Below, in pieces: positions 34,227-44,143 of a stretch of DNA of 44,857 bases. A model generated the notes under the pieces. The model made no database searches and was not told where the DNA came from. It saw only the letters and a program-made list of their open reading frames with translations. The stretch lies in sequence record OR861626.1, one strand, 5' to 3'. The translations under genes and the position numbers were made by a program. Within the stretch, counting starts at the first letter, position 1, and every line of letters starts with the position of its first letter. Origin of the DNA: Escherichia phage phiA2-1.

Positions 34227-35810
34227 TCACCCCAACAGTCGTGGATTAATGTAAATCTTATCGCCAATCAGGCACGTATAGTTTTTCTCATCAAGCATCG
34301 GAACCAAGTGGTCTTTTATGCGAGTCATGACTCCAGCCTGAGCTTCGAAAGGCTTAACCTTGCGCGCTGCTTCATATAATGAGCGAATACCAACAACGCC
34401 CTTCCCATTCTTGCCCTGCTTAATCAGGATATCAACCAGCTTGTTCATCTCCGCATTGTCACCAGCATGACCAGCAGCACTAGCAGATGACAAATACGTC
34501 TTGCTTAGTTCGTGGAAAATCATAACCGCTTCCTGCATTGTCTCAAGTTCAATCTCTCTGGACTTCTGAGGACTCGACCCGGCTGGCGCGAACCAGTTGC
34601 GAATAACATGCAGAACAGAAGCGATACGAATTGCTTGCTTATCAAACTTACCTAGCGCACCACGTAACATTGTGTGGGAATACTTACCGCCATCACCAAG
34701 ATGCGGCTCCATCTCCTGACGAGCGCGGTTGAGGTAACGCATGGATGACGCACTTACAGTCAGTTTCACTTCAACTTCATTCATAATCTCATGAACGAGC
34801 CGGAAGTAATCAGCCTTCAACCCACCATCAATAGCCTCATAGGTTGAATCTCCATTCTCATCAACAAACACACGGTCGCCAAGGAATGACTTTTCACGCA
34901 CCAGAAGAAAACGTTCAGATACACCAATACCACGCGCACCAGCATTCATAATAGCATTGATTGTTTCATCCTGAGCAATTACAGAAATACATCCCATAGC
35001 CACAAAACTCATGTTGTTTTCTGCGTTAGCGCGCGCAATAGATACGTTACCAGCATCCCACGCCTTAAGCACTAGCTCGCTGTTCGTTTTCTTTGAGCCA
35101 TCTCCGTATGTCATGCCAAGCAGTGAGTTTACGCTTGTTGCCTCATCCGAGATTACAGCAAAGTTTCCCTGTCGGTTGTTTATTCGCGCAAGACCTTCCG
35201 GCGTAGTATCGGAGACCGGGAATACTATATCGCATAGCTTCTCGAGCTTTTCCTCTAAATCCTCCTTCTCTTCAAATAGTGATGCCATCTCAGAAGGTGA
35301 CTTCTCCTGCTTCATCTCTTTTGATAGAGCGGATAGCTTAGCCATAATCTTTTTGCGGTCACGCTTGCGCACTTCATTCAACCGCTCAGTCTCAGCGATC
35401 ATTGGCGCAATAGATAGTGAGTTGATGGCAGATTTACCAGTTGAGGGAGGCTGGCTTGTTACAACGTACAAAGATGTTGGCTGCTGAGTTCCATGATATT
35501 CAACCGTAAAGCGCCCAAGCATTGCAGCAGACACGCAACCCAGAAAGTGCATGTAAGCTGAAGACTCTGGAAACTGAACTGAACGAGCAATATTGGCAGA
35601 TAGCTTACCAACGATATCAATGTCATTACCTAATGATATGACAGGATACTTGTCATTACCTGCATCAATCTCGACAGGTGTTTTCCAGAATGATTGTGAT
35701 TGTCGATAACCATTTGCATTAATGGCCACGCGCAGGGGTGGGAGGTTGTCATTGGCGGCAATTGCCATAACCTGTTCAACAGATAGTTTATCTTCGTTGA
35801 AATCAAACAT
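34227..35810 (-). CDS. P-loop NTPase, putative replicative helicase
   Basis: 527 aa; Walker A-like SQPPSTGKSA; N- and C-termini repeated in the truncated paralog at 38698. Confidence 0.45.
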   Translation of the reverse strand: MFDFNEDKLSVEQVMAIAANDNLPPLRVAINANGYRQSQSFWKTPVEIDAGNDKYPVISLGNDIDIVGKLSANIARSVQFPESSAYMHFLGCVSAAMLGRFTVEYHGTQQPTSLYVVTSQPPSTGKSAINSLSIAPMIAETERLNEVRKRDRKKIMAKLSALSKEMKQEKSPSEMASLFEEKEDLEEKLEKLCDIVFPVSDTTPEGLARINNRQGNFAVISDEATSVNSLLGMTYGDGSKKTNSELVLKAWDAGNVSIARANAENNMSFVAMGCISVIAQDETINAIMNAGARGIGVSERFLLVREKSFLGDRVFVDENGDSTYEAIDGGLKADYFRLVHEIMNEVEVKLTVSASSMRYLNRARQEMEPHLGDGGKYSHTMLRGALGKFDKQAIRIASVLHVIRNWFAPAGSSPQKSREIELETMQEAVMIFHELSKTYLSSASAAGHAGDNAEMNKLVDILIKQGKNGKGVVGIRSLYEAARKVKPFEAQAGVMTRIKDHLVPMLDEKNYTCLIGDKIYINPRLLG

Positions 35811-38149: not shown

Positions 38150-38698
38150 ATGCAGAAAGTAACGCTTGGTGAAGTTATTCGTGAGATGGTACGAAAGGCG
38201 ATGGAATCGGAAAGTGGTGAGTTTAAGGTTCCAGTCAGCCAGATATTCAAAATGATTCGCGGAAGGTCGTACCCGGAAATGGAGTATGACACTGAGACGG
38301 ATGAGATATTGAATTTGGCAGACCGGTCATTACCTGAGCTTAAGAACTCATACATCTACAACACCGTGTCACGAATGACAGACTTACGAGACGCAAACAA
38401 GAGGGCGCGATATAAATTTATCTGGATTGATGACGAAGGAGAGCAGACAAACGCAAGGCAATTTGATGGTGATGGTGCTGATAAGTACTTGGTTATATAC
38501 ATTGAGAACGGTGCGCACTGGACTGGCAATCGGGAGAAGAAGAAACAAGAAGCTCAGAAAGAGGCGACCACCATTGAAAGGTTCAAGGCCAGAATCCTGA
38601 AACTCATGCCATCAGTGACTGAATTTGAAGGCGATGAGATTTCCGGTGCTATCAAGGCAATCAAAATGTACCAGGAAATGATTAAGGAGACAAAATAA
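38150..38698 (+). CDS. Hypothetical protein (first gene after control region)
   Basis: 182-aa ORF. Confidence 0.4.
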   Translation: MQKVTLGEVIREMVRKAMESESGEFKVPVSQIFKMIRGRSYPEMEYDTETDEILNLADRSLPELKNSYIYNTVSRMTDLRDANKRARYKFIWIDDEGEQTNARQFDGDGADKYLVIYIENGAHWTGNREKKKQEAQKEATTIERFKARILKLMPSVTEFEGDEISGAIKAIKMYQEMIKETK

Positions 38699-39120
38699 TG
38701 TTTAACTTTAGCGATAACAAGCTCACCACTGAAGAAATTATTAAAATCGCTGAGAGTGATGGGCTTCCAGTTATCAGCGTGGCAATCGAAGCGAATGGAT
38801 ACAAGCACTCTCAATACTTATGGGGTCACATTGGTGTATATGATGTTTTCAAGGGTAGCGACCTTGCGATTATTATTAAGAATCTCGAAAAGTTCAGCAA
38901 AAGCGGAAGCTATGTGGTTACTGTGAAGACACTGCACGAAAGCGTATTCGCCATGCGAGAAATCGGGCCACATGAAAGGCTTCATGATGAACTTATTCCG
39001 CAACTTGAGGTGATGAACATTGCTTTCCTTATCGGCAATAATATTTACATTAATCCTGCTCTTGCAGATTCAAGCTGGAATCCTAATTTTAAAGCCCGAG
39101 AAGATGAGCACCCTAGTTGA
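38698..39120 (+). CDS. Truncated paralog of the 34227..35810 helicase (N- and C-terminal segments only, no ATPase core)
   Basis: MFNFSDNKLTTEEIIKIAESDGLP...AIEANGYKHSQ aligns with MFDFNEDKLSVEQVMAIAANDNLP...AINANGYRQSQ; C-terminal LIGNNIYINPAL aligns with LIGDKIYINPRL. Confidence 0.45.
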   Translation: MFNFSDNKLTTEEIIKIAESDGLPVISVAIEANGYKHSQYLWGHIGVYDVFKGSDLAIIIKNLEKFSKSGSYVVTVKTLHESVFAMREIGPHERLHDELIPQLEVMNIAFLIGNNIYINPALADSSWNPNFKAREDEHPS

Positions 39121-39205: not shown

Positions 39206-39260
39206 AATGGCACGAATTGTCAAACCTTCCTCAAGGCCATTTGATATAGTGGCCTTATTG
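39206..39260 (+). promoter_or_regulatory. Promoter-like cassette variant
   Basis: AATGGCACGAATTGTCAAAC, 22 nt, TATAGT; inverted repeat AAGGCCA/TGGCCTT spans the -10. Confidence 0.45.
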
Positions 39261-39282: not shown

Positions 39283-39513
39283 ATGGAGAGGAATAAATAT
39301 GAAAGAGAAATTATTGGGCTTAATGGCGAGCGTGCTATTATTGATGTGTATCGCACGCTATCAGCATTCGACGTTACAGACCCAGCGTGCCAACATGCTA
39401 TCAAAAAGCTATTGTGTATGGGGCTGCGAGGCCACAAAGACATTATAACAGACCTTGATGACGCAATAGACTCACTAAACAAGATGAAAACTTACCTGGA
39501 GCAAACGAAATGA
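39283..39513 (+). CDS. Hypothetical protein
   Basis: 76-aa ORF. Confidence 0.35.
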   Translation: MERNKYEREIIGLNGERAIIDVYRTLSAFDVTDPACQHAIKKLLCMGLRGHKDIITDLDDAIDSLNKMKTYLEQTK

Positions 39514-39743
39514 TTACAATTAACCTGTCAGACAAGCAAGCCACAATTCTTAAGCAGCTAATCTCAAGTCAGCCAATGCAGTGCTCGGCGGTCGAGTTCT
39601 CAGAGATGGTCAAAGAGGTTTGTACTCAAATCAACAATCAGCAGTTCGATGTGTCAGACTTCGAGTCATCACGCCAGTACGAATCTCTAAGCATTAAGAA
39701 TGCTGGATACCTCGATAACTGGGATAAGGCGACTAAGAAATGA
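39510..39743 (+). CDS. Hypothetical protein
   Basis: 77-aa ORF overlapping neighbours. Confidence 0.35.
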   Translation: MITINLSDKQATILKQLISSQPMQCSAVEFSEMVKEVCTQINNQQFDVSDFESSRQYESLSIKNAGYLDNWDKATKK

Positions 39744-39928
39744 AAGATATTAAAACTACAGATAGAAGCGATGACGCCATGACGTTCCAGGTGAGCAGCC
39801 AGACAGCAAAAGAGCACATGAACAAACTGGAGTCATTTGGGATTGACGTTTCTGGATTTGGTGTTAATTGCACAAGTGCAGCTAATACAACCAAGAGTTG
39901 GAGATTTGATAAGGAGTTCAATAAATGA
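39740..39928 (+). CDS. Hypothetical protein
   Basis: 62-aa ORF. Confidence 0.35.
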   Translation: MKDIKTTDRSDDAMTFQVSSQTAKEHMNKLESFGIDVSGFGVNCTSAANTTKSWRFDKEFNK

Positions 39929-40074
39929 TTTACATCCACACGTACTACACTGGCAAATTCAACAGCGTTAAGCACGTTTCGGTGCATCAGAAGAAGAGCG
40001 ACGCAATTAAGCAATATGAGGTTCTTGGCGGTGTAGTTATTGAGGTAATGAAAGCCAGATTGATCCTGAGCTAA
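39925..40074 (+). CDS. Small ORF (49 aa), not in ORF track
   Basis: AAGGAG RBS; ATG overlaps upstream stop (ATGA). Confidence 0.3.
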   Translation: MIYIHTYYTGKFNSVKHVSVHQKKSDAIKQYEVLGGVVIEVMKARLILS

Positions 40075-40075
40075 A

Positions 40076-40140
40076 AATAGCACGAATTGCTAAACAATCG
40101 CCGGAGCAATCCGGCATAATTACCACTTCGAAACGACAGG
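40076..40140 (+). promoter_or_regulatory. Promoter-like cassette
   Basis: ATAGCACGAATTGCTAAAC, 22 nt (contains CCGGAGCAATCCGG), CATAAT, CTTCGAAACGACA leader. Confidence 0.45.
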
Positions 40141-40158
40141 AGGAGGGGAGGAGGGGAA

Positions 40159-40338
40159 ATGAGATTTCAACAATCAGAACCAAAACTACAAGCTAACCAC
40201 TTCGATGGTTACGCAACATTCATCATTGCCCAGGTATGCGGGATGAGTGACGAGCCACAGGTTCACACTGTTCACTTAACCGAAGAGCAAGCTCGAGAGA
40301 TGGCATACGAAATTCTTGAGCAATTGAATAAGATTTAA
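40159..40338 (+). CDS. Small ORF (59 aa), not in ORF track
   Basis: Preceded by purine-rich GGAGGAGGGGAGGAGGGG RBS region. Confidence 0.35.
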   Translation: MRFQQSEPKLQANHFDGYATFIIAQVCGMSDEPQVHTVHLTEEQAREMAYEILEQLNKI

Positions 40339-40835
40339 CGCTTCTAGAACGAATTCTAACGAACAATAATTTAAGTAAGGTGATTCATCATGGAAGCACA
40401 AGAAAGCCCTGTAGAGTGGTGCAGGAGAATGCAGGACGAAGCAAAGACTGGTGAAGAGGCGATGGCCTACTACGAGCTGGCTAAAATGTGGATGGAGCGG
40501 GGGAAGAAACAATGAGCTTAACTGAATACGTTATCGCATGTGAACGACTGGTCTTTGATATGAAGACTTTCCACTTGTTCATCATTAATGATTTAATTAA
40601 GCCTTATAAGCAGGGTGTGAAACCTGAGGAATTTATCAAGAACTTCTATAGCACTAAAAGCTAAATACAGCCGCCACGGATGGCATACAATAACCCAATC
40701 AACACAACGAGAGATTGAGATATGACAAGTTATGGTTCTTACACACTTGGTGAGCTATATGACGCTTATTACTCATGGGGTTCAGCATCAGAATGCGATG
40801 CAGACACAAAGTCAGTAATAATTGAGGATTGAGAA

Positions 40836-41072
40836 ATGTTCGGACTAAATGAAGCGATGTTCAATGCGGTAAAGCGTCAGGCAGATAGACTTAACGACGA
40901 GTACGGGAAGCTAGGCACAAAAAAGAAGGATGATAAGGTTGTGGCTGCACTGATTACTCAGGTTTGGGGACCGGTATCAACACTAATTGCTCGAGACAAA
41001 TTTATTTGGATTGCTGGTTATCGAAAAGGTCGCGTTGGTCATGACGAGAATGGGAATAGTCTTTATGAGTAA
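40836..41072 (+). CDS. Hypothetical protein
   Basis: 78-aa ORF. Confidence 0.3.
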   Translation: MFGLNEAMFNAVKRQADRLNDEYGKLGTKKKDDKVVAALITQVWGPVSTLIARDKFIWIAGYRKGRVGHDENGNSLYE

Positions 41073-41655
41073 ATTAGATGACGCTTTAGCATGGTTCGCT
41101 TACGGGTTGATTGTTGGTGGGGGGATAACTTTAATATGCCTGGTGGTGGTGCTATGAGTGAGTTAACAATCTGGTTTATCGCAGGGCTGGTTACTTGGGC
41201 TTACTTCCTGGTGGCAGCATGAGAGCGTTGAGAAAGATTTTTTACGGCTGCAAAAAGCATCACTACGTTTACTTTCGTGATATTGAATGGTTCGAGGAGG
41301 CTAATTGAAAGTATGGTTTTAAAACAAAGTTAATATGCAAGAAATGCCGGCACATTGAGAGCAGCAGGGTTGGCGTGATGATTTGCCGCAGCACACTTGA
41401 CGACATTGCGTATGGAAAGCTCAAACATCCACCAGTTAAGCCTTAACTGTTAAAAAGAGCTTGCATCACTGACTGGAAACTTCTAATATTAACCACGTAG
41501 ACAAACGAGGCCACCATGTGGCAACGGCGCACGGAGCGCAACTACTAAGTCCGTTGCTCATTAAGTAGCGTATGCGGCATTAAGACCTAGCGCAAATAGG
41601 CATATTAACCGGCTGTATCAGGCAACCCCGGAGCCGTAACCGGGACTCATTCAAG

Positions 41656-41733
41656 GCTCTGCTAGCTCAATTGGATAGAAGCAACGACCTTCTAAGTCGT
41701 AGGTTACTGGTTCGAATCCAGTGCGGAGCGCCA
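41656..41733 (+). tRNA. tRNA-Arg (anticodon UCU), CCA encoded
   Basis: Hand-folded cloverleaf: acceptor GCTCTGC/GCGGAGC (one G-U), D-arm with GG, anticodon stem ACGAC/GTCGT with loop CTTCTAA, T-arm ACTGG-TTCGAAT-CCAGT, 3' GCCA. Confidence 0.7.
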
Positions 41734-41748
41734 ATAAAGGAGTTCATT

Positions 41749-41931
41749 ATGTGGGATGTGAAGTTGTCCATTCGCTTAATGGGCCGCAGTTGCAAGAGTT
41801 GCACTCAAGATTACATCGCGTCAGTTGCCGCAATCAGCGCTGAGGATGCGGTAGCGAAAGTAAAAGAGATGTCGGGCGCTGACCCTGGCACTCACAAATT
41901 CCTGGTAGCTTACGTTCGTGAGCGAAAGTAA
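41749..41931 (+). CDS. Hypothetical protein
   Basis: Track ORF from 41671 overlaps the tRNA; ATG 41749 with AAAGGAG RBS is the credible start. Confidence 0.4.
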   Translation: MWDVKLSIRLMGRSCKSCTQDYIASVAAISAEDAVAKVKEMSGADPGTHKFLVAYVRERK

Positions 41932-41975: not shown

Positions 41976-42000
41976 AGCCCTCGCTTGAGGGCTTTTTTTC
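41976..42000 (+). terminator. Rho-independent terminator
   Basis: AGCCCTC-GCTT-GAGGGCT plus T7. Confidence 0.55.
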
Positions 42001-42043: not shown

Positions 42044-42550
42044 ATGAGCAAAGCAGCATTAAAGATGGGTGAGGGAAACTTCAAGGCGCTTTACAACAAG
42101 AAGTATGGCGATATTGCTATGGTTGCAATCAACCGCAAGTACACGCCAGAAGAGGTGTTTAATTTTGCCGTTAGATACTTCTCCTGGGCTGAGGGTGAGG
42201 CAATTAAAGCTATCGAGACAGCGGCTTTCCAGGGTGTGGTTAGTGAAAGCCTGGTGCACAAGCCTCGGGTATTCACCTTAACTGGCCTGGCACTCTTCAT
42301 GGGTGTTAATATCAATAGGTTCGCTCGCTGGCGCGGTGAGGCTGGGTACTCTGACGTGATGGAGTTTATTGATAACGTAATCTATGAGCAGAAATATCAG
42401 CTTGGCGTTGCAGGTATTATCAACTCCACCATCGTTGGTAAAGAGCTTGGCATTGATAAGCCGCAGGAGATTACCATTAGCAACAACTCCACAGCTAACG
42501 ACGTTGATAGCATGAAGGAAGCGCTGGAATCTGTGATAAGTAAGTTATAA
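42044..42550 (+). CDS. Terminase small subunit (putative)
   Basis: 168-aa ORF immediately upstream of terminase large subunit; AAGGAGG RBS; HTH-like FTLTGLALFMGVNINRFARWR. Confidence 0.55.
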   Translation: MSKAALKMGEGNFKALYNKKYGDIAMVAINRKYTPEEVFNFAVRYFSWAEGEAIKAIETAAFQGVVSESLVHKPRVFTLTGLALFMGVNINRFARWRGEAGYSDVMEFIDNVIYEQKYQLGVAGIINSTIVGKELGIDKPQEITISNNSTANDVDSMKEALESVISKL

Positions 42551-42568: not shown

Positions 42569-44143
42569 ATGAGTGACGTTTTGGTCTGGGAGGAACTATC
42601 CCAATCAGAGAAGCAAGCCGTCAAGCTTCTGTCTACGCATAACTTCGAGACTTTCCTTCGGGTATGGTTTAGCCTTACCCAGGGCCAGAAGTACATAATG
42701 AACTGGCATCATAGATACCTGTGCAGAATAGTTGACGAAATTATAAGCGGTGAGAGAAAGGATACAATCATTAACGTATCGCCTGGAGCTGGTAAAACCG
42801 AGATTACATCCATCCACTTTCCAGTTTACAGTTATCTAAAACTACCAAAAGTGCGAAACCTTAGCCTGTCATTCTCTGACAGCCTGGTTAAGCGAAACTC
42901 AAAGCGAGTTCGTGACCTAATTAAGTGCCAGGAGTTTCAGGAGCTATTCCCAAGCAAGTTTGGCACTTGTAAGGATGACGAAATTCAGGTTCTTGATGAG
43001 TCAGGCAAAGTGCGGTTTGAGTCGATATCAAAGGCTATTGGTGGCCAAATAACTGGGTCACGCGGCGGCTACATTACCGACACTTACAGTGGCTGTCTAA
43101 TGCTGGATGACGTTGATAAAGTCGATGATATGCTCAGTAAGGTTCGCCGCGAGTCGGTTCATATGCTTCTGAAGAACACCATTCGCTCTCGTAGGGCCAG
43201 CTCGGTCAAGGGGAGGGCCACGCCAATTATTTCCATACAGCAGCGATTGCATGTTAACGACTCAAGTTGGTTCATGGCTGAATCTGGCGGCATGGGGATA
43301 GATTTCGATGTGGTGAAGATTCCAGCAATCGTAACCGAGGATTACATCGACACACTTCCTGACTGGTTAAGGCCACACTTCGAGGCTGACGTTCTATCTA
43401 GCGAGTACATCGAGCGGGATGGGGTTAAATACTACAGCTACTACCCACAGAAGGAATCAATTCACGATTTAATGGCAATGCAAGACGCCGACCCATACAC
43501 GTTCGCAAGTCAATATATGCAAAGCCCCATAGCTCTCGGCGGCAACATGGTGGATACGGATTGGTTTATTCGTTACGGTGGGGATTTGCGAGCGCCATTG
43601 AAGTATGATTACCGATTCATTACTGCGGATACCGCACTTACCACGAAGTCATACAGTGACTTTAGCGTATTCCAGTTATGGGGAGTAAAAGATAGGAAGC
43701 TATACCTTCTTGATATGGTTAGGGGTAAGTATGAAGCACCCGAGCTTGAGGCGACGCTATTGGATTTTGAAGCAAAAGCAAGAGCCACAAGTCGCGAGGA
43801 GGGAATACTCCGTAAGGTAATTATCGAGAAGAAGGCATCTGGTATTGGCCTAATTCAGTCCGCTGGTAGAGTTATGCGCACACCTATTGAGCCATTCATA
43901 CCAGATACAGATAAGGTTACCAGAGTGCTGTCGGCAATACCTCAGATTAAGGCTGGCAATGTAATGATTCCAGAATCAGCACCGTGGATGAGTGCATTCA
44001 TCTCTGAGTTTTCAGCATTTACAGCAGACATGAGCCACCGCCACGACGACATTGTGGATACAACAACAATGGCAATCAACTGCGAACTAAACCTTGCAGA
44101 TGACCCTAAATCTCGAATGTTACGCCTCGCGGGAATTAAATAA
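42569..44143 (+). CDS. Terminase large subunit
   Basis: 524 aa; Walker A-like VSPGAGKTE; C-terminal nuclease-like acidic residues; followed by portal. Confidence 0.75.
   Translation: MSDVLVWEELSQSEKQAVKLLSTHNFETFLRVWFSLTQGQKYIMNWHHRYLCRIVDEIISGERKDTIINVSPGAGKTEITSIHFPVYSYLKLPKVRNLSLSFSDSLVKRNSKRVRDLIKCQEFQELFPSKFGTCKDDEIQVLDESGKVRFESISKAIGGQITGSRGGYITDTYSGCLMLDDVDKVDDMLSKVRRESVHMLLKNTIRSRRASSVKGRATPIISIQQRLHVNDSSWFMAESGGMGIDFDVVKIPAIVTEDYIDTLPDWLRPHFEADVLSSEYIERDGVKYYSYYPQKESIHDLMAMQDADPYTFASQYMQSPIALGGNMVDTDWFIRYGGDLRAPLKYDYRFITADTALTTKSYSDFSVFQLWGVKDRKLYLLDMVRGKYEAPELEATLLDFEAKARATSREEGILRKVIIEKKASGIGLIQSAGRVMRTPIEPFIPDTDKVTRVLSAIPQIKAGNVMIPESAPWMSAFISEFSAFTADMSHRHDDIVDTTTMAINCELNLADDPKSRMLRLAGIK

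What the first reader, a model, noticed from the sequence alone, without database searches (positions are those of the whole stretch)
39925..41230. Dense array of very small, translationally coupled ORFs (22-59 aa) missed by the ORF track
Hand translation finds consecutive small ORFs with good RBSs and overlapping stop/start codons: 39925..40074, 40159..40338, about 40390..40515, 40512..40664, 40722..40832, then two tiny hydrophobic ORFs at about 41062..41157 and 41158..41221. Early-region micro-proteins are a common hiding place for host-takeover and anti-defence functions.
Basis: seen in the sequence. Interest (0 to 1): 0.45.

Follow-up and report, generated by a model that had tools for sequence, protein, structure and literature searches.

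The report
Small-gene block of a T1-like phage
The tiny ORFs are real, conserved genes of the small-gene block that T1/Rtp-like coliphages carry in front of their terminase genes; most are already annotated as hypothetical proteins in relatives, and the only fresh point is that the two tiniest encode single-pass membrane peptides sitting in a slot where such mini-genes are swapped between phages.

Summary
The window is a complete Rtp-like coliphage (Drexlerviridae, Braunvirinae). All seven ORFs exist, on the + strand, at or within 4 nt of the stated coordinates. They have Shine-Dalgarno sites and 4-8 nt stop/start overlaps.

- Four are homologues of Rtp genes annotated since 2006: rtp9, rtp11, rtp12 and rtp13. 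All five belong to PHROG families of unknown function.
- Against 13 relatives pN/pS is 0.14-0.44.
- The 36-aa ORF recurs only in phage BEK2.
- The 22-aa hydrophobic ORF (MSELTIWFIAGLVTWAYFLVAA) is present in 106 phage records of the Braunvirinae and Rogunavirinae (pN/pS 0.21). It is rarely annotated and is lost or broken in three lineages.
- The 30-aa hydrophobic ORF has one diverged homologue of equal length, in IME542.
- Both lie in a cassette slot behind the rtp15 homologue. Its junction CTTTATGAGTRA joins the stop of one gene to the start of the next.
- Other phages hold other membrane peptides, zinc-ribbon mini-proteins or an HNH endonuclease in or just behind this slot.

No function could be assigned: there is no Pfam, NCBIfam, PADLOC, PDB or fold match. 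Early timing and an anti-defence role remain untested. Verdict: real but ordinary, a new member of a known kind.

The parts
39925..40074 (+). o49, 49 aa; homologue of Rtp rtp9 / T1 gp04 (phrog_3955). Last gene of a four-gene coupled unit 39283-40074 (76, 77, 62 and 49 aa, all joined by ATGA overlaps).
   Evidence: (E 5e-20). Homologue in 13/13 relatives; pN/pS 0.44, with the N-terminal 36 aa conserved. Fused to an o78-like domain in Rogue1_0011.
40077..40094 (+). Drexlerviridae intergenic repeat ATAGCACGAATTGCTAAA, 82 nt upstream of o59. It overlaps a promoter-like TAAACA-18-CATAAT and a GCCGGA/TCCGGC hairpin at 40099-40116. Further copies lie at 39207-39224 (76 nt before the 39283 ORF) and at 40648-40665.
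   Evidence: (23 matches against 6.5 expected). Consensus and the ~76-nt spacing are described for TLS, T1, Rtp and Rogue1 in PMC11447400.
40159..40338 (+). o59, 59 aa; homologue of rtp11 (phrog_7411). Very strong SD (GGAGGAGGGGAGGAGGGG).
   Evidence: E 3e-32; 12/13 relatives, pN/pS 0.14; -12.6 kcal/mol. AF2 model of low confidence, pLDDT 65: beta-hairpin plus helix.
40390..40515 (+). o41, 41 aa; homologue of rtp12 (phrog_1312). Close homologues carry Pfam DUF8272.
   Evidence: E 1e-15; 12/13, pN/pS 0.19. Also present in Rogunavirinae. PF26839 on 41-aa homologues.
40512..40664 (+). o50, 50 aa; homologue of rtp13 (phrog_22596). ATGA overlap with o41.
   Evidence: E 3e-32; 12/13, pN/pS 0.17.
40648..40665 (+). 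Third copy of the Drexlerviridae repeat (ATAGCACTAAAAGCTAAA, 2 mismatches), 74 nt upstream of o36.
40722..40832 (+). o36, 36 aa, acidic (net charge -6). It sits in a variable slot that holds unrelated ORFs in other phages (rtp14 in Rtp; 46-, 65- and 80-aa ORFs elsewhere).
   Evidence: Only homologue among the loci compared: BEK2 L012:1387-1497, 35/36 identical and unannotated. No PHROG or Pfam hit. Weakest SD, -3.0.
40836..41072 (+). o78, 78 aa; homologue of rtp15 / T1 ST59 (phrog_303). Family-wide Drexlerviridae gene and the anchor of the cassette slot.
41065..41157 (+). t30, 30 aa, MSKLDDALAWFAYGLIVGGGITLICLVVVL. Predicted single-pass membrane peptide (GRAVY 1.65) occupying the slot. Its start overlaps the o78 stop (ATGAGTAA).
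   Evidence: Single homologue in IME542, 30 aa, 46% aa and 54% nt identity. No hit in phage tblastn or IMG/VR.
41154..41222 (+). t22, 22 aa, MSELTIWFIAGLVTWAYFLVAA. Conserved single-pass membrane peptide of the Braunvirinae and Rogunavirinae.
   Evidence: 106 phage records. 17 unique DNA versions, length 21-22 codons, no indels. pN/pS 0.21. Rogunavirinae form MTELSIWFLAGMLTWIYFVVMA. Absent from T1 and Webervirus. Lost or broken in three lineages.
41219..41446 (+). CxxHH...CxxC zinc-ribbon-like mini-gene (74-78 aa in most relatives, up to 102), interrupted in the window by an in-frame TGA at 41306-41308. This leaves a 29-aa ORF, 41219-41308, coupled to t22 by ATGA.
   Evidence: PCEc3 has TGC in the same context. 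23 homologous clusters, none with a Pfam domain.
41461..41655 (+). Putative promoter TTGCAT-17-TAATAT, read by eye (it failed the scan: 3 of 6 matches in the -35 hexamer), followed by a conserved 164-nt leader running up to tRNA-Arg. Downstream lie tRNA-Arg(tct) 41656-41733, the 60-aa rtp17 homologue 41749-41931, and a terminator at 41976-41993 followed by a T-run, ahead of TerS.

Best explanation
The finding is the downstream half of the small-gene block that T1/Rtp-like phages (Drexlerviridae) carry between the divergent intergenic region at about 37.4-38.1 kb and the terminase genes.

Transcription (inferred). The block appears to be organised as short polycistronic units. Each is preceded, 74-82 nt before its first start codon, by the family-specific repeat ATAGCAC-N3-TTGnTAAA next to a weak sigma-70-like promoter. 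The units are 39283-40074, 40159-40664 and 40722-41308. A separate unit follows: promoter, leader, tRNA-Arg, 60-aa ORF, terminator.

Translation (shown from sequence). Within units, ORFs are linked by 4-8 nt stop/start overlaps and have SD sites, so ribosomes finishing one ORF can restart on the next.

Products. They are real proteins under purifying selection (shown).
- Five are known hypothetical families, rtp9/11/12/13/15. Of these, o41 (rtp12), o49 (rtp9) and o78 (rtp15) are conserved across subfamilies, as is t22.
- Directly behind o78 lies a cassette slot defined by the junction CTTTATGAGTRA. Different lineages hold nothing there, one of at least two families of 30-36-aa single-pass membrane peptides, or a CxxHH...CxxC zinc-ribbon mini-protein.
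- The conserved 22-aa membrane peptide follows the slot. Behind it come an optional zinc-ribbon gene or an HNH endonuclease.
- The window carries the rare 30-aa peptide, the 22-aa peptide and a nonsense allele of the zinc-ribbon gene.

Function (inferred, low confidence). t30 and t22 insert into the inner membrane as bare transmembrane helices and act by helix-helix binding to a host or phage membrane protein. They are dispensable, host-dependent accessory factors rather than essential genes. What the soluble mini-proteins bind is unknown.
For: Identity of the block: synteny with Rtp rtp5-rtp19 and with the BASEL phages Bas01-03; T1 ST77-ST55.

Families.

Selection and integrity.

Coupling and SD sites.

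Repeat elements: with PMC11447400.

Terminator before TerS.

Slot and cassettes:
- One search gives the junction alignment.
- One search covers IME542 and DTL, one search covers IME253 and Rao1, and one search covers metagenome lineages, including an HNH endonuclease coupled to t22.

t22: breadth. Hydropathy (GRAVY 1.56-2.07 for all the slot peptides). Codon-level conservation.

t30: the shuffle test, and a diverged homologue of equal length.

Dispensability of t22:
- It is absent from Rao1 and a Logan lineage.
- It carries a nonsense codon in IME542.
- An ENA lineage has ATG>ACG plus A10D and W15L.
Against: - No expression data of any kind; transcription units, promoters and timing are read from sequence only.
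- The repeat element also precedes structural-gene modules, so it says nothing about early timing.
- Membrane insertion is inferred from hydropathy alone.
- t30 rests on two sequences, and o36 on two nearly identical ones (no synonymous changes, so no selection signal).
- pN/pS values are all window-versus-relative comparisons and are not phylogenetically independent.
- t22 is open in frame upstream of its ATG in most phages (MTRMGIVFMSELT...), so its true start is uncertain.
- No partner or phenotype is known for any member.
Confidence: 0.62

Rival explanations
1. One reading: the array is an early-expressed island of host-takeover and anti-defence micro-proteins, each inhibiting a bacterial immune system or a host process.
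For: - Position next to the presumptive left genome end, as in T1.
- 'Presumptive early' in PMC11447400.
- Presence/absence mosaicism of o36, t30, the zinc-ribbon gene, o59 and o50, typical of accessory genes.
- A small non-essential Drexlerviridae protein (Gp54 of Bas11) is known to interact with a defence protein (PMC11578894).
Against: - No similarity to any defence-related model or to any PDB entry.
- DefenseFinder found no anti-defence genes in a T1-like genome (PMC13164509).
- Most Drexlerviridae are highly restriction-sensitive (PMC8594841).
- o41, o49, o78 and t22 are conserved between subfamilies at 44-63% identity, unlike typical fast-turnover counter-defence genes.
- Timing is untested.
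Confidence: 0.25
2. The conserved members (o78 with t22, o41, o49, o60) serve a phage-intrinsic function tied to their position just upstream of the tRNA and terminase genes. Examples would be regulation of the switch to late or packaging gene expression, or a membrane-associated step of DNA replication or packaging. Only the cassettes would be accessory.
For: - o78 is in 823 records, apparently the whole family, and is restricted to it.
- Gene order o78 - promoter/leader - o60 - terminator - TerS is kept from Rtp to T1 and Webervirus.
- o49 and o78 occur as one fused protein in Rogue1.
Against: - No DNA-binding or other recognisable fold in o78.
- t22 is lost or broken in three lineages that are otherwise intact.
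- The fusion may be a simple deletion or an annotation artefact.
Confidence: 0.25
3. The membrane peptides are superinfection-exclusion or lysis-timing factors. They would block DNA entry of related phages at the inner membrane, or modulate the holin or membrane potential.
For: - Single-pass hydrophobic peptides.
- Several unrelated membrane peptide families compete for the same slot.
- t30 has a GxxxG-type motif (GLIVGGG), read directly from the sequence.
Against: - They are not in the lysis cassette and not next to the receptor-binding locus, where Drexlerviridae exclusion genes (cor) are thought to lie (PMC8594841; PMC13164509).
- No lipobox.
- No homology to any known exclusion protein or holin.
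Confidence: 0.15
4. The tiny hydrophobic ORFs are not separate genes. Either they are chance ORFs in a conserved non-coding or regulatory stretch, or they are reached by a +1 frameshift from o78 to make a membrane-anchored o78.
For: - The t30/t22 frame is open upstream of the ATG inside o78.
- Gene callers of the ENA and Logan assemblies never called them.
- An ENA lineage lacks the ATG.
Against: - pN/pS of 0.21, fixed length and no indels over 17 distinct sequences and two subfamilies.
- t22 keeps its own start when displaced 90-180 nt from o78 by cassettes.
- No slippery motif was seen by eye at the junction.
- The t30 shuffle test gave P about 7e-4.
Confidence: 0.04

Closest known systems
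Rtp genes rtp9-rtp15 (AM156909) and the T1 block ST60-ST55: the pre-terminase small-gene region of Drexlerviridae
   Same: Same order, strand and position upstream of tRNA-Arg and TerS. o49, o59, o41, o50 and o78 are 80-91% identical to rtp9, 11, 12, 13 and 15. The same intergenic repeat element is present.
   Different: The window lacks rtp10 and rtp14. It has o36 in the rtp14 position and t30 behind o78, and it carries a truncated zinc-ribbon gene that Rtp lacks. T1 has ST58 in place of t22.
Annotated versions of t22: EC3a_13 'putative membrane protein' (KY398841) and RobRod40 CDS0078
   Same: Same peptide core, MSELTIWFIAGL(I/V)TWAYF.
   Different: Those annotations start at upstream in-frame ATGs (44 and 29 aa). 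Most of the 106 records leave the ORF unannotated, or only the overlapping rtp15 homologue is listed. There is no PHROG family for it.
Bacterial and phage small membrane proteins of under 50 aa (for example E. coli AcrZ, MgtS and KdpF; type I toxin peptides). This comparison comes from general knowledge, not from a test here.
   Same: A bare single transmembrane helix with almost no soluble part. Such peptides generally act by binding larger membrane proteins or by perturbing the membrane.
   Different: No sequence similarity. No antisense RNA or toxin-antitoxin context was seen. The peptides are encoded in a lytic phage operon and translationally coupled to a soluble four-helix protein.
Gp54 of phage Bas11, a 66-aa non-essential Drexlerviridae protein sensed by CapRelSJ46 (PMC11578894)
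   Same: A small hypothetical protein of the same phage family that proved to be non-essential and relevant to immunity.
   Different: It is described as a six-stranded beta-barrel. o59, o49 and the o78 profile gave no significant PDB match (best E 0.061); the other ORFs were not searched and PDB coverage of Gp54 was not verified. o78 is helical.

Membership tests
phrog_3955 / rtp9 / T1 gp04 family (o49) | Significant match to the family HMM over most of its length | tested here: met
   E 5e-20, residues 1-44 on profile positions 1-44 of 48; 80% identity to rtp9.
phrog_7411 / rtp11 family (o59) | Full-length HMM match | tested here: met
   E 3e-32, residues 1-59 on profile positions 2-61 of 61.
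phrog_1312 / rtp12 family; Pfam DUF8272 (o41) | HMM match to the PHROG; Pfam PF26839 match | tested here: inconclusive
   The PHROG match is met (E 1e-15). The local Pfam scan gave no DUF8272 hit, but 41-aa homologues in fetched loci carry a precomputed PF26839 hit. The model may be missing from the local copy.
phrog_22596 / rtp13 family (o50) | Full-length HMM match | tested here: met
   E 3e-32, residues 1-47 on profile positions 1-47 of 47.
phrog_303 / rtp15 / T1 ST59 family (o78) | HMM match, and a conserved position upstream of the rtp17 homologue and TerS | tested here: met
   E 6e-25; synteny.
Known anti-phage defence proteins | Match to a PADLOC model | tested here: not met
   No hit at E<=0.1 for any window ORF tested. 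The only hit was a marginal 2TM-effector match (E 0.037) to JeanPiccard's zinc-ribbon protein.
Known anti-defence proteins | Match to a curated anti-defence model (e.g. AntiDefenseFinder or dbAPIS) | not testable with these tools
   No anti-defence library was available. The literature reports no anti-defence genes found by DefenseFinder in a T1-like phage (PMC13164509).
Single-pass small membrane proteins (t30, t22) | One hydrophobic stretch of about 19 residues or more that can span the bilayer | tested here: met
   Best 19-residue Kyte-Doolittle window 2.43 (t30) and 1.93 (t22). This is hydropathy only; no dedicated topology predictor was available.
Single-pass small membrane proteins (t30, t22) | Demonstrated membrane localisation | not testable with these tools
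   Needs cell fractionation or tagging.
Holins / lysis-cassette peptides | Location in the lysis module next to endolysin and spanin genes | tested here: not met
   The array lies directly upstream of tRNA-Arg and TerS. No PHROG lysis family was hit.
Cor/Llp-type superinfection-exclusion lipoproteins | N-terminal signal peptide with a lipobox cysteine | tested here: not met
   t22 has no cysteine. The only cysteine of t30 is at residue 25 of 30, in the context TLIC, which is not a lipobox (sequence).
Selenocysteine recoding (for the in-frame TGA at 41306) | UGA aligned with a conserved Cys, plus a SECIS hairpin downstream | tested here: not met
   The aligned residue varies among relatives (Cys in five, Arg in two, Phe in one). 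A SECIS element was not searched for. The simplest reading is a TGC>TGA nonsense change.

The most novel reading that the evidence does not exclude
The stop/start overlap behind the rtp15 homologue (CTTTATGAGTRA, and the ATGA behind t22) could be a dedicated exchange point. There, Braunvirinae and Rogunavirinae phages would swap interchangeable 21-36-aa transmembrane peptides and zinc-ribbon mini-proteins, possibly helped by the HNH endonucleases found at the same spot. These peptides would then be a so far unrecognised class of membrane-acting host-range or counter-defence factors, with t22 as the ancestral, clade-wide member. The nonsense-mutated t22 in IME542, which carries the t30-type peptide, hints at functional replacement.
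Probability: 0.15. Interest if true: 0.6.

Novelty: new member of a known kind. Interest (0 to 1): 0.27.

Why it matters
As a whole the array is ordinary. It is the known hypothetical small-gene region of T1/Rtp-like phages, and the finding mostly reflects a length cut-off in ORF calling.

Two things have modest value.

First, a 21-22-aa membrane peptide is conserved under purifying selection in about 100 sequenced coliphages of two subfamilies. Automatic gene callers systematically miss it, and it is absent from PHROGs. It is a clean annotation target and an easy candidate for tagging and deletion in the BASEL phages Bas01-03.

Second, the slot around it shows how micro-genes are exchanged precisely at overlapping stop/start codons. 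This gives a small natural panel of interchangeable membrane peptides to test for effects on host range, exclusion or defence.

Tried and rejected
Family and structure searches that found nothing
- Pfam, NCBIfam and PADLOC scans of all ORFs: no credible hit.
- PDB sequence searches for o78 (as a profile), o59 and o49: nothing below E 0.06.
- Structure of o59: pLDDT 65, too poor to search. afdb50 was unavailable.
- The o78 profile against 1.84 billion proteins found 21 representatives, nearly all stand-alone proteins of 76-84 aa; the three longer ones (107, 504 and 2,530 aa) were not examined. I took no function-informing fusion from it.

Searches for t30 and t22 relatives
- t30 in the phage collection by tblastn: no true hit. 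Its IME542 homologue was missed there and found only by a local unfiltered tblastn.
- IMG/VR scans with a degenerate t30 pattern and with the junction pattern returned nothing, or contigs whose lengths match known GenBank phages.
- The search for related loci and the search for homologous proteins refuse queries as short as t30 and t22.

Other checks
- Rfam on 36.0-42.2 kb found only the tRNA.
- The Rtp genome paper could not be read.
- No transcriptome of a T1-like phage was found.

Ideas considered and rejected
- The long antisense ORFs 39733-40083 and 40276-40512 as real genes: no family hit, and they lie opposite conserved + strand genes.
- Selenocysteine at the TGA: the aligned residue is not conserved.
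- t22 conservation as part of the tRNA promoter: its distance to the promoter varies from about 15 to about 230 nt depending on the zinc-ribbon gene.
Full report
WHAT THE WINDOW IS

The 44.9-kb window is essentially a whole genome of an Rtp-like coliphage (Drexlerviridae, Braunvirinae). The region 39.5-41.7 kb matches 88 phage records at 80-95% identity. Among them are Rtp, the BASEL phages AugustePiccard, JeanPiccard and JulesPiccard, and the Veterinaerplatzvirus isolates.

The finding lies on the + strand. Upstream is a divergent AT-rich intergenic region at about 37.4-38.1 kb; downstream are tRNA-Arg(tct) at 41656-41733, TerS at 42044-42550 and TerL at 42569-44143. The homologous block of T1 (ST77 to ST55) starts 539 bp from the left end of the T1 genome record and likewise ends at a terminator before the terminase genes.

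THE OBSERVATION

All seven ORFs are there.
- Five coordinates are exact.
- The two tiny ones are 41065-41157 (30 aa) and 41154-41222 (22 aa).

Stop/start overlaps are ATGA at 39925, 40512, 41154 and 41219, and ATGAGTAA at 41065. ORF 40836 starts 3 nt after the previous stop.

SD-antiSD duplex energies are -3.0 to -12.6 kcal/mol. The mean for all 864 ATGs in the window is -2.4, and 22% of those ATGs reach -4. Only the 36-aa ORF is weak.

The 116-aa and 78-aa ORFs on the opposite strand match no phage family. They are probably what a length-filtered ORF track would have shown instead.

ARE THEY GENES?

Mapping onto annotated relatives:

| Window ORF | Rtp homologue | Identity | PHROG |
|---|---|---|---|
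| o49 | rtp9 | 80% | 3955 |
| o59 | rtp11 | 86% | 7411 |
| o41 | rtp12 | 87% | 1312 |
| o50 | rtp13 | 82% | 22596 |
| o78 | rtp15 | 91% | 303 |

All five families are of unknown function. 41-aa homologues of o41 in related contigs carry Pfam DUF8272.

Nei-Gojobori comparisons of the window with 13 relatives give pN/pS of 0.44 (o49), 0.14 (o59), 0.19 (o41), 0.17 (o50), 0.27 (o78) and 0.21 (t22). Homologues are intact in 12-13 of the 13 relatives.

The 36-aa ORF is found only in BEK2, 35 of 36 residues identical and unannotated. Other phages hold unrelated ORFs of 46-82 aa at that position.

OPERON STRUCTURE (INFERRED)

The repeat ATAGCAC-N3-TTGnTAAA has been described for TLS, T1, Rtp and Rogue1 as lying about 76 nt upstream of start codons (PMC11447400). 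In the window it occurs 23 times at up to three mismatches, against 6.5 expected. Three copies punctuate the small-gene block:

| Repeat at | First ORF start | Distance |
|---|---|---|
| 39207 | 39283 | 76 nt |
| 40077 | 40159 | 82 nt |
| 40648 | 40722 | 74 nt |

The 40077 copy overlaps a promoter-like TAAACA-18-CATAAT. By eye, each copy is followed by a short hairpin and a CATAAT/TACAAT-like box. The same element also precedes structural-gene modules, so it gives no information on timing.

A strong intrinsic terminator, 41976-41993 followed by a T-run, closes the region before TerS.

THE TWO TINY HYDROPHOBIC ORFS

This is the only part that goes beyond existing annotation.

In every relative the rtp15 homologue ends ...GNSLYE*. 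The next ORF starts inside CTTTATGAGTRA, so that ATGAGT encodes Met-Ser.

In Rtp, RobRod40, AugustePiccard, T145P1, JeanPiccard, BEK1-1, BEK2 and 12210I that next ORF is t22 itself. Other phages have a cassette inserted in between, each with the same start and an ATGA (GTGA in DTL) overlap onto t22:
- A 31-36-aa hydrophobic peptide: MSKFIDCVIY... in PCEc3, EC3a, JulesPiccard and the metagenome contigs L033, L038 and L039; MSNLIGYVICIL... in DTL, which may or may not be related to it (relatedness not tested).
- A 60-62-aa CxxH(H)...CxxC protein in SU57, JulesPiccard and IME253.
- The 30-aa t30, in the window.

t30 has a single homologue, in IME542:
- MSKLDKAFFRFAFCLVVAYSIGAVVFVVML is also 30 aa, with 46% amino-acid and 54% nucleotide identity.
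- pS is 0.88 and pN 0.36, and the GRAVY is identical at 1.65.
- Only 0.07% of shuffles of the t30 interior are both open and as hydrophobic.

t22 is found by tblastn in 106 phage records.
- These are Braunvirinae plus Rogunavirinae, where it reads MTELSIWFLAGMLTWIYFVVMA. According to the BASEL paper these two subfamilies form one of the two major clades of the family (PMC8594841).
- It is absent from T1, where ST58 follows ST59, and from Webervirus NJS1.
- Its length is fixed at 21-22 codons with no indels over 17 distinct DNA versions.
- It is not universal within its clade. Rao1 and a Logan lineage lack it. IME542 has a TGA at codon 15. An ENA metagenome lineage has ATG>ACG with A10D and W15L.
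- It is rarely annotated: EC3a_13 as 'putative membrane protein' and RobRod40 CDS0078, both from upstream ATGs. The gene callers behind the ENA and Logan contigs never called it.
- It has no PHROG family.

Behind t22 there are three alternatives: nothing, with the tRNA promoter region following directly; a CxxHH...CxxC gene of 74-78 aa in most relatives (up to 102 aa); or an HNH endonuclease. The last two are joined to t22 by ATGA.

In the window the zinc-ribbon gene carries an in-frame TGA where PCEc3 has TGC in an otherwise identical context. The remaining 45 codons are intact. This points to a recent nonsense allele, or to a sequencing error.

FUNCTION

Nothing could be assigned.
- No Pfam, NCBIfam or PADLOC hits and no PDB sequence hits.
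- The o78 family is present in 823 phage records but has only 21 cluster representatives among 1.84 billion proteins. It is therefore confined to this phage family.
- o59 models poorly, pLDDT 65.
- Rogue1_0011 is a natural fusion of an o49-like and an o78-like domain. This is a weak hint that the two act together.

My best reading follows. The conserved members (o41, o49, o78, t22 and the 60-aa rtp17 homologue) serve a conserved but dispensable phage-host interaction or regulatory role. The cassettes are accessory. t22 and t30 act as bare transmembrane helices in the inner membrane, binding a larger membrane protein. All of this is inferred and held with low confidence.

The anti-defence reading is possible for the variable cassettes but has no positive evidence. 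The family is reported as mostly very restriction-sensitive. DefenseFinder found no anti-defence genes in a T1-like genome.

COMPARISON AND VERDICT

This is the window's version of the Rtp rtp9-rtp15 and T1 ST60-ST55 block: a new member of a known kind.

The parts that are not in databases are the t22 peptide family (known to a couple of annotators, absent from PHROGs), the two-member t30 family, and the description of the slot. Interest is low to moderate (0.27).

The most novel reading not excluded is a dedicated exchange point for membrane-acting micro-peptides with a role in host range or defence. I give it about 15%.

Noticed in passing
window 41219-41446 (TGA at 41306-41308): A zinc-ribbon-like mini-gene (CxxHH...CxxC; 74-78 aa in most relatives) is cut by a single in-frame TGA where PCEc3 has TGC in the same context. 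The other 45 codons are intact. It is a recent nonsense allele or a sequencing error. The aligned residue is Cys, Phe or Arg in relatives, so selenocysteine is unlikely.
   Followed up: partly
window 41461-41655; also L019 (T1) about 1125 and L018 (NJS1) about 1795: A putative promoter, TTGCAT-17-TAATAT, is followed by a 164-nt conserved leader up to tRNA-Arg. Its 5' box, ACCACGTAGAC, recurs with one or two changes in T1 (ATCCCGTAGAC) and unchanged in Webervirus, which have no tRNA there. One hairpin shows three compensatory pairs (GCCAC/GUGGC against CCAUC/GAUGG). There is no Rfam match, and the overall folding energy is not unusual (z -0.43). It may be an unrecognised leader or small RNA.
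   Followed up: partly
window, 23 sites, e.g. 6588, 19738(-), 22634, 24971, 26973, 30146, 36458(-), 37504(-), 40077: The Drexlerviridae repeat ATAGCAC-N3-TTGnTAAA (described for TLS, function unknown) occurs 23 times against 6.5 expected. It lies ahead of both structural-gene modules and the small-gene block.
   Followed up: partly
L022 (IME542) about 1900-2100: IME542 is the only other phage found with a t30-type peptide, and its t22 has a premature stop (W15 to TGA) and an A10E change. This may mean one membrane peptide has replaced the other.
   Followed up: partly
L014 (Rogue1) 944-1321: Rogue1_0011, annotated 'putative fusion protein', joins an rtp9-like domain directly to an rtp15-like domain in one 125-aa ORF. 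In the window these are two separate genes (o49 and o78).
   Followed up: partly
L038 1902-2381 and L039 752-1231 (Logan metagenome contigs): A 159-aa HNH endonuclease gene starts with an ATGA overlap on the t22 stop, at the position where other phages have the zinc-ribbon gene. A homing endonuclease at the cassette boundary could drive the mosaicism.
   Followed up: no
L008, L012, L027 downstream of the leader: Some relatives appear to carry a different sequence at the tRNA position (GCTCGAGTGGCGAAAGTGG...CTTCTAATCT...), where the window has its tRNA-Arg(tct). I read this by eye from the sequence and did not run a tRNA scan on it. PCEc3 is annotated with an additional 102-nt 'tRNA-Ile'.
   Followed up: no
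window 38698-39120 compared with 34227-35810(-): The 140-aa ORF starts MFNFSDNKLTTEEIIKIAESDGLP.... Its N-terminus and parts of its C-terminal region resemble the ends of the 527-aa helicase-like protein encoded on the other strand (MFDFNEDKLSVEQVMAIAANDNLPP...). It also hits phrog_2373, DNA helicase, at E 8e-12. It looks like a shortened paralogue.
   Followed up: no
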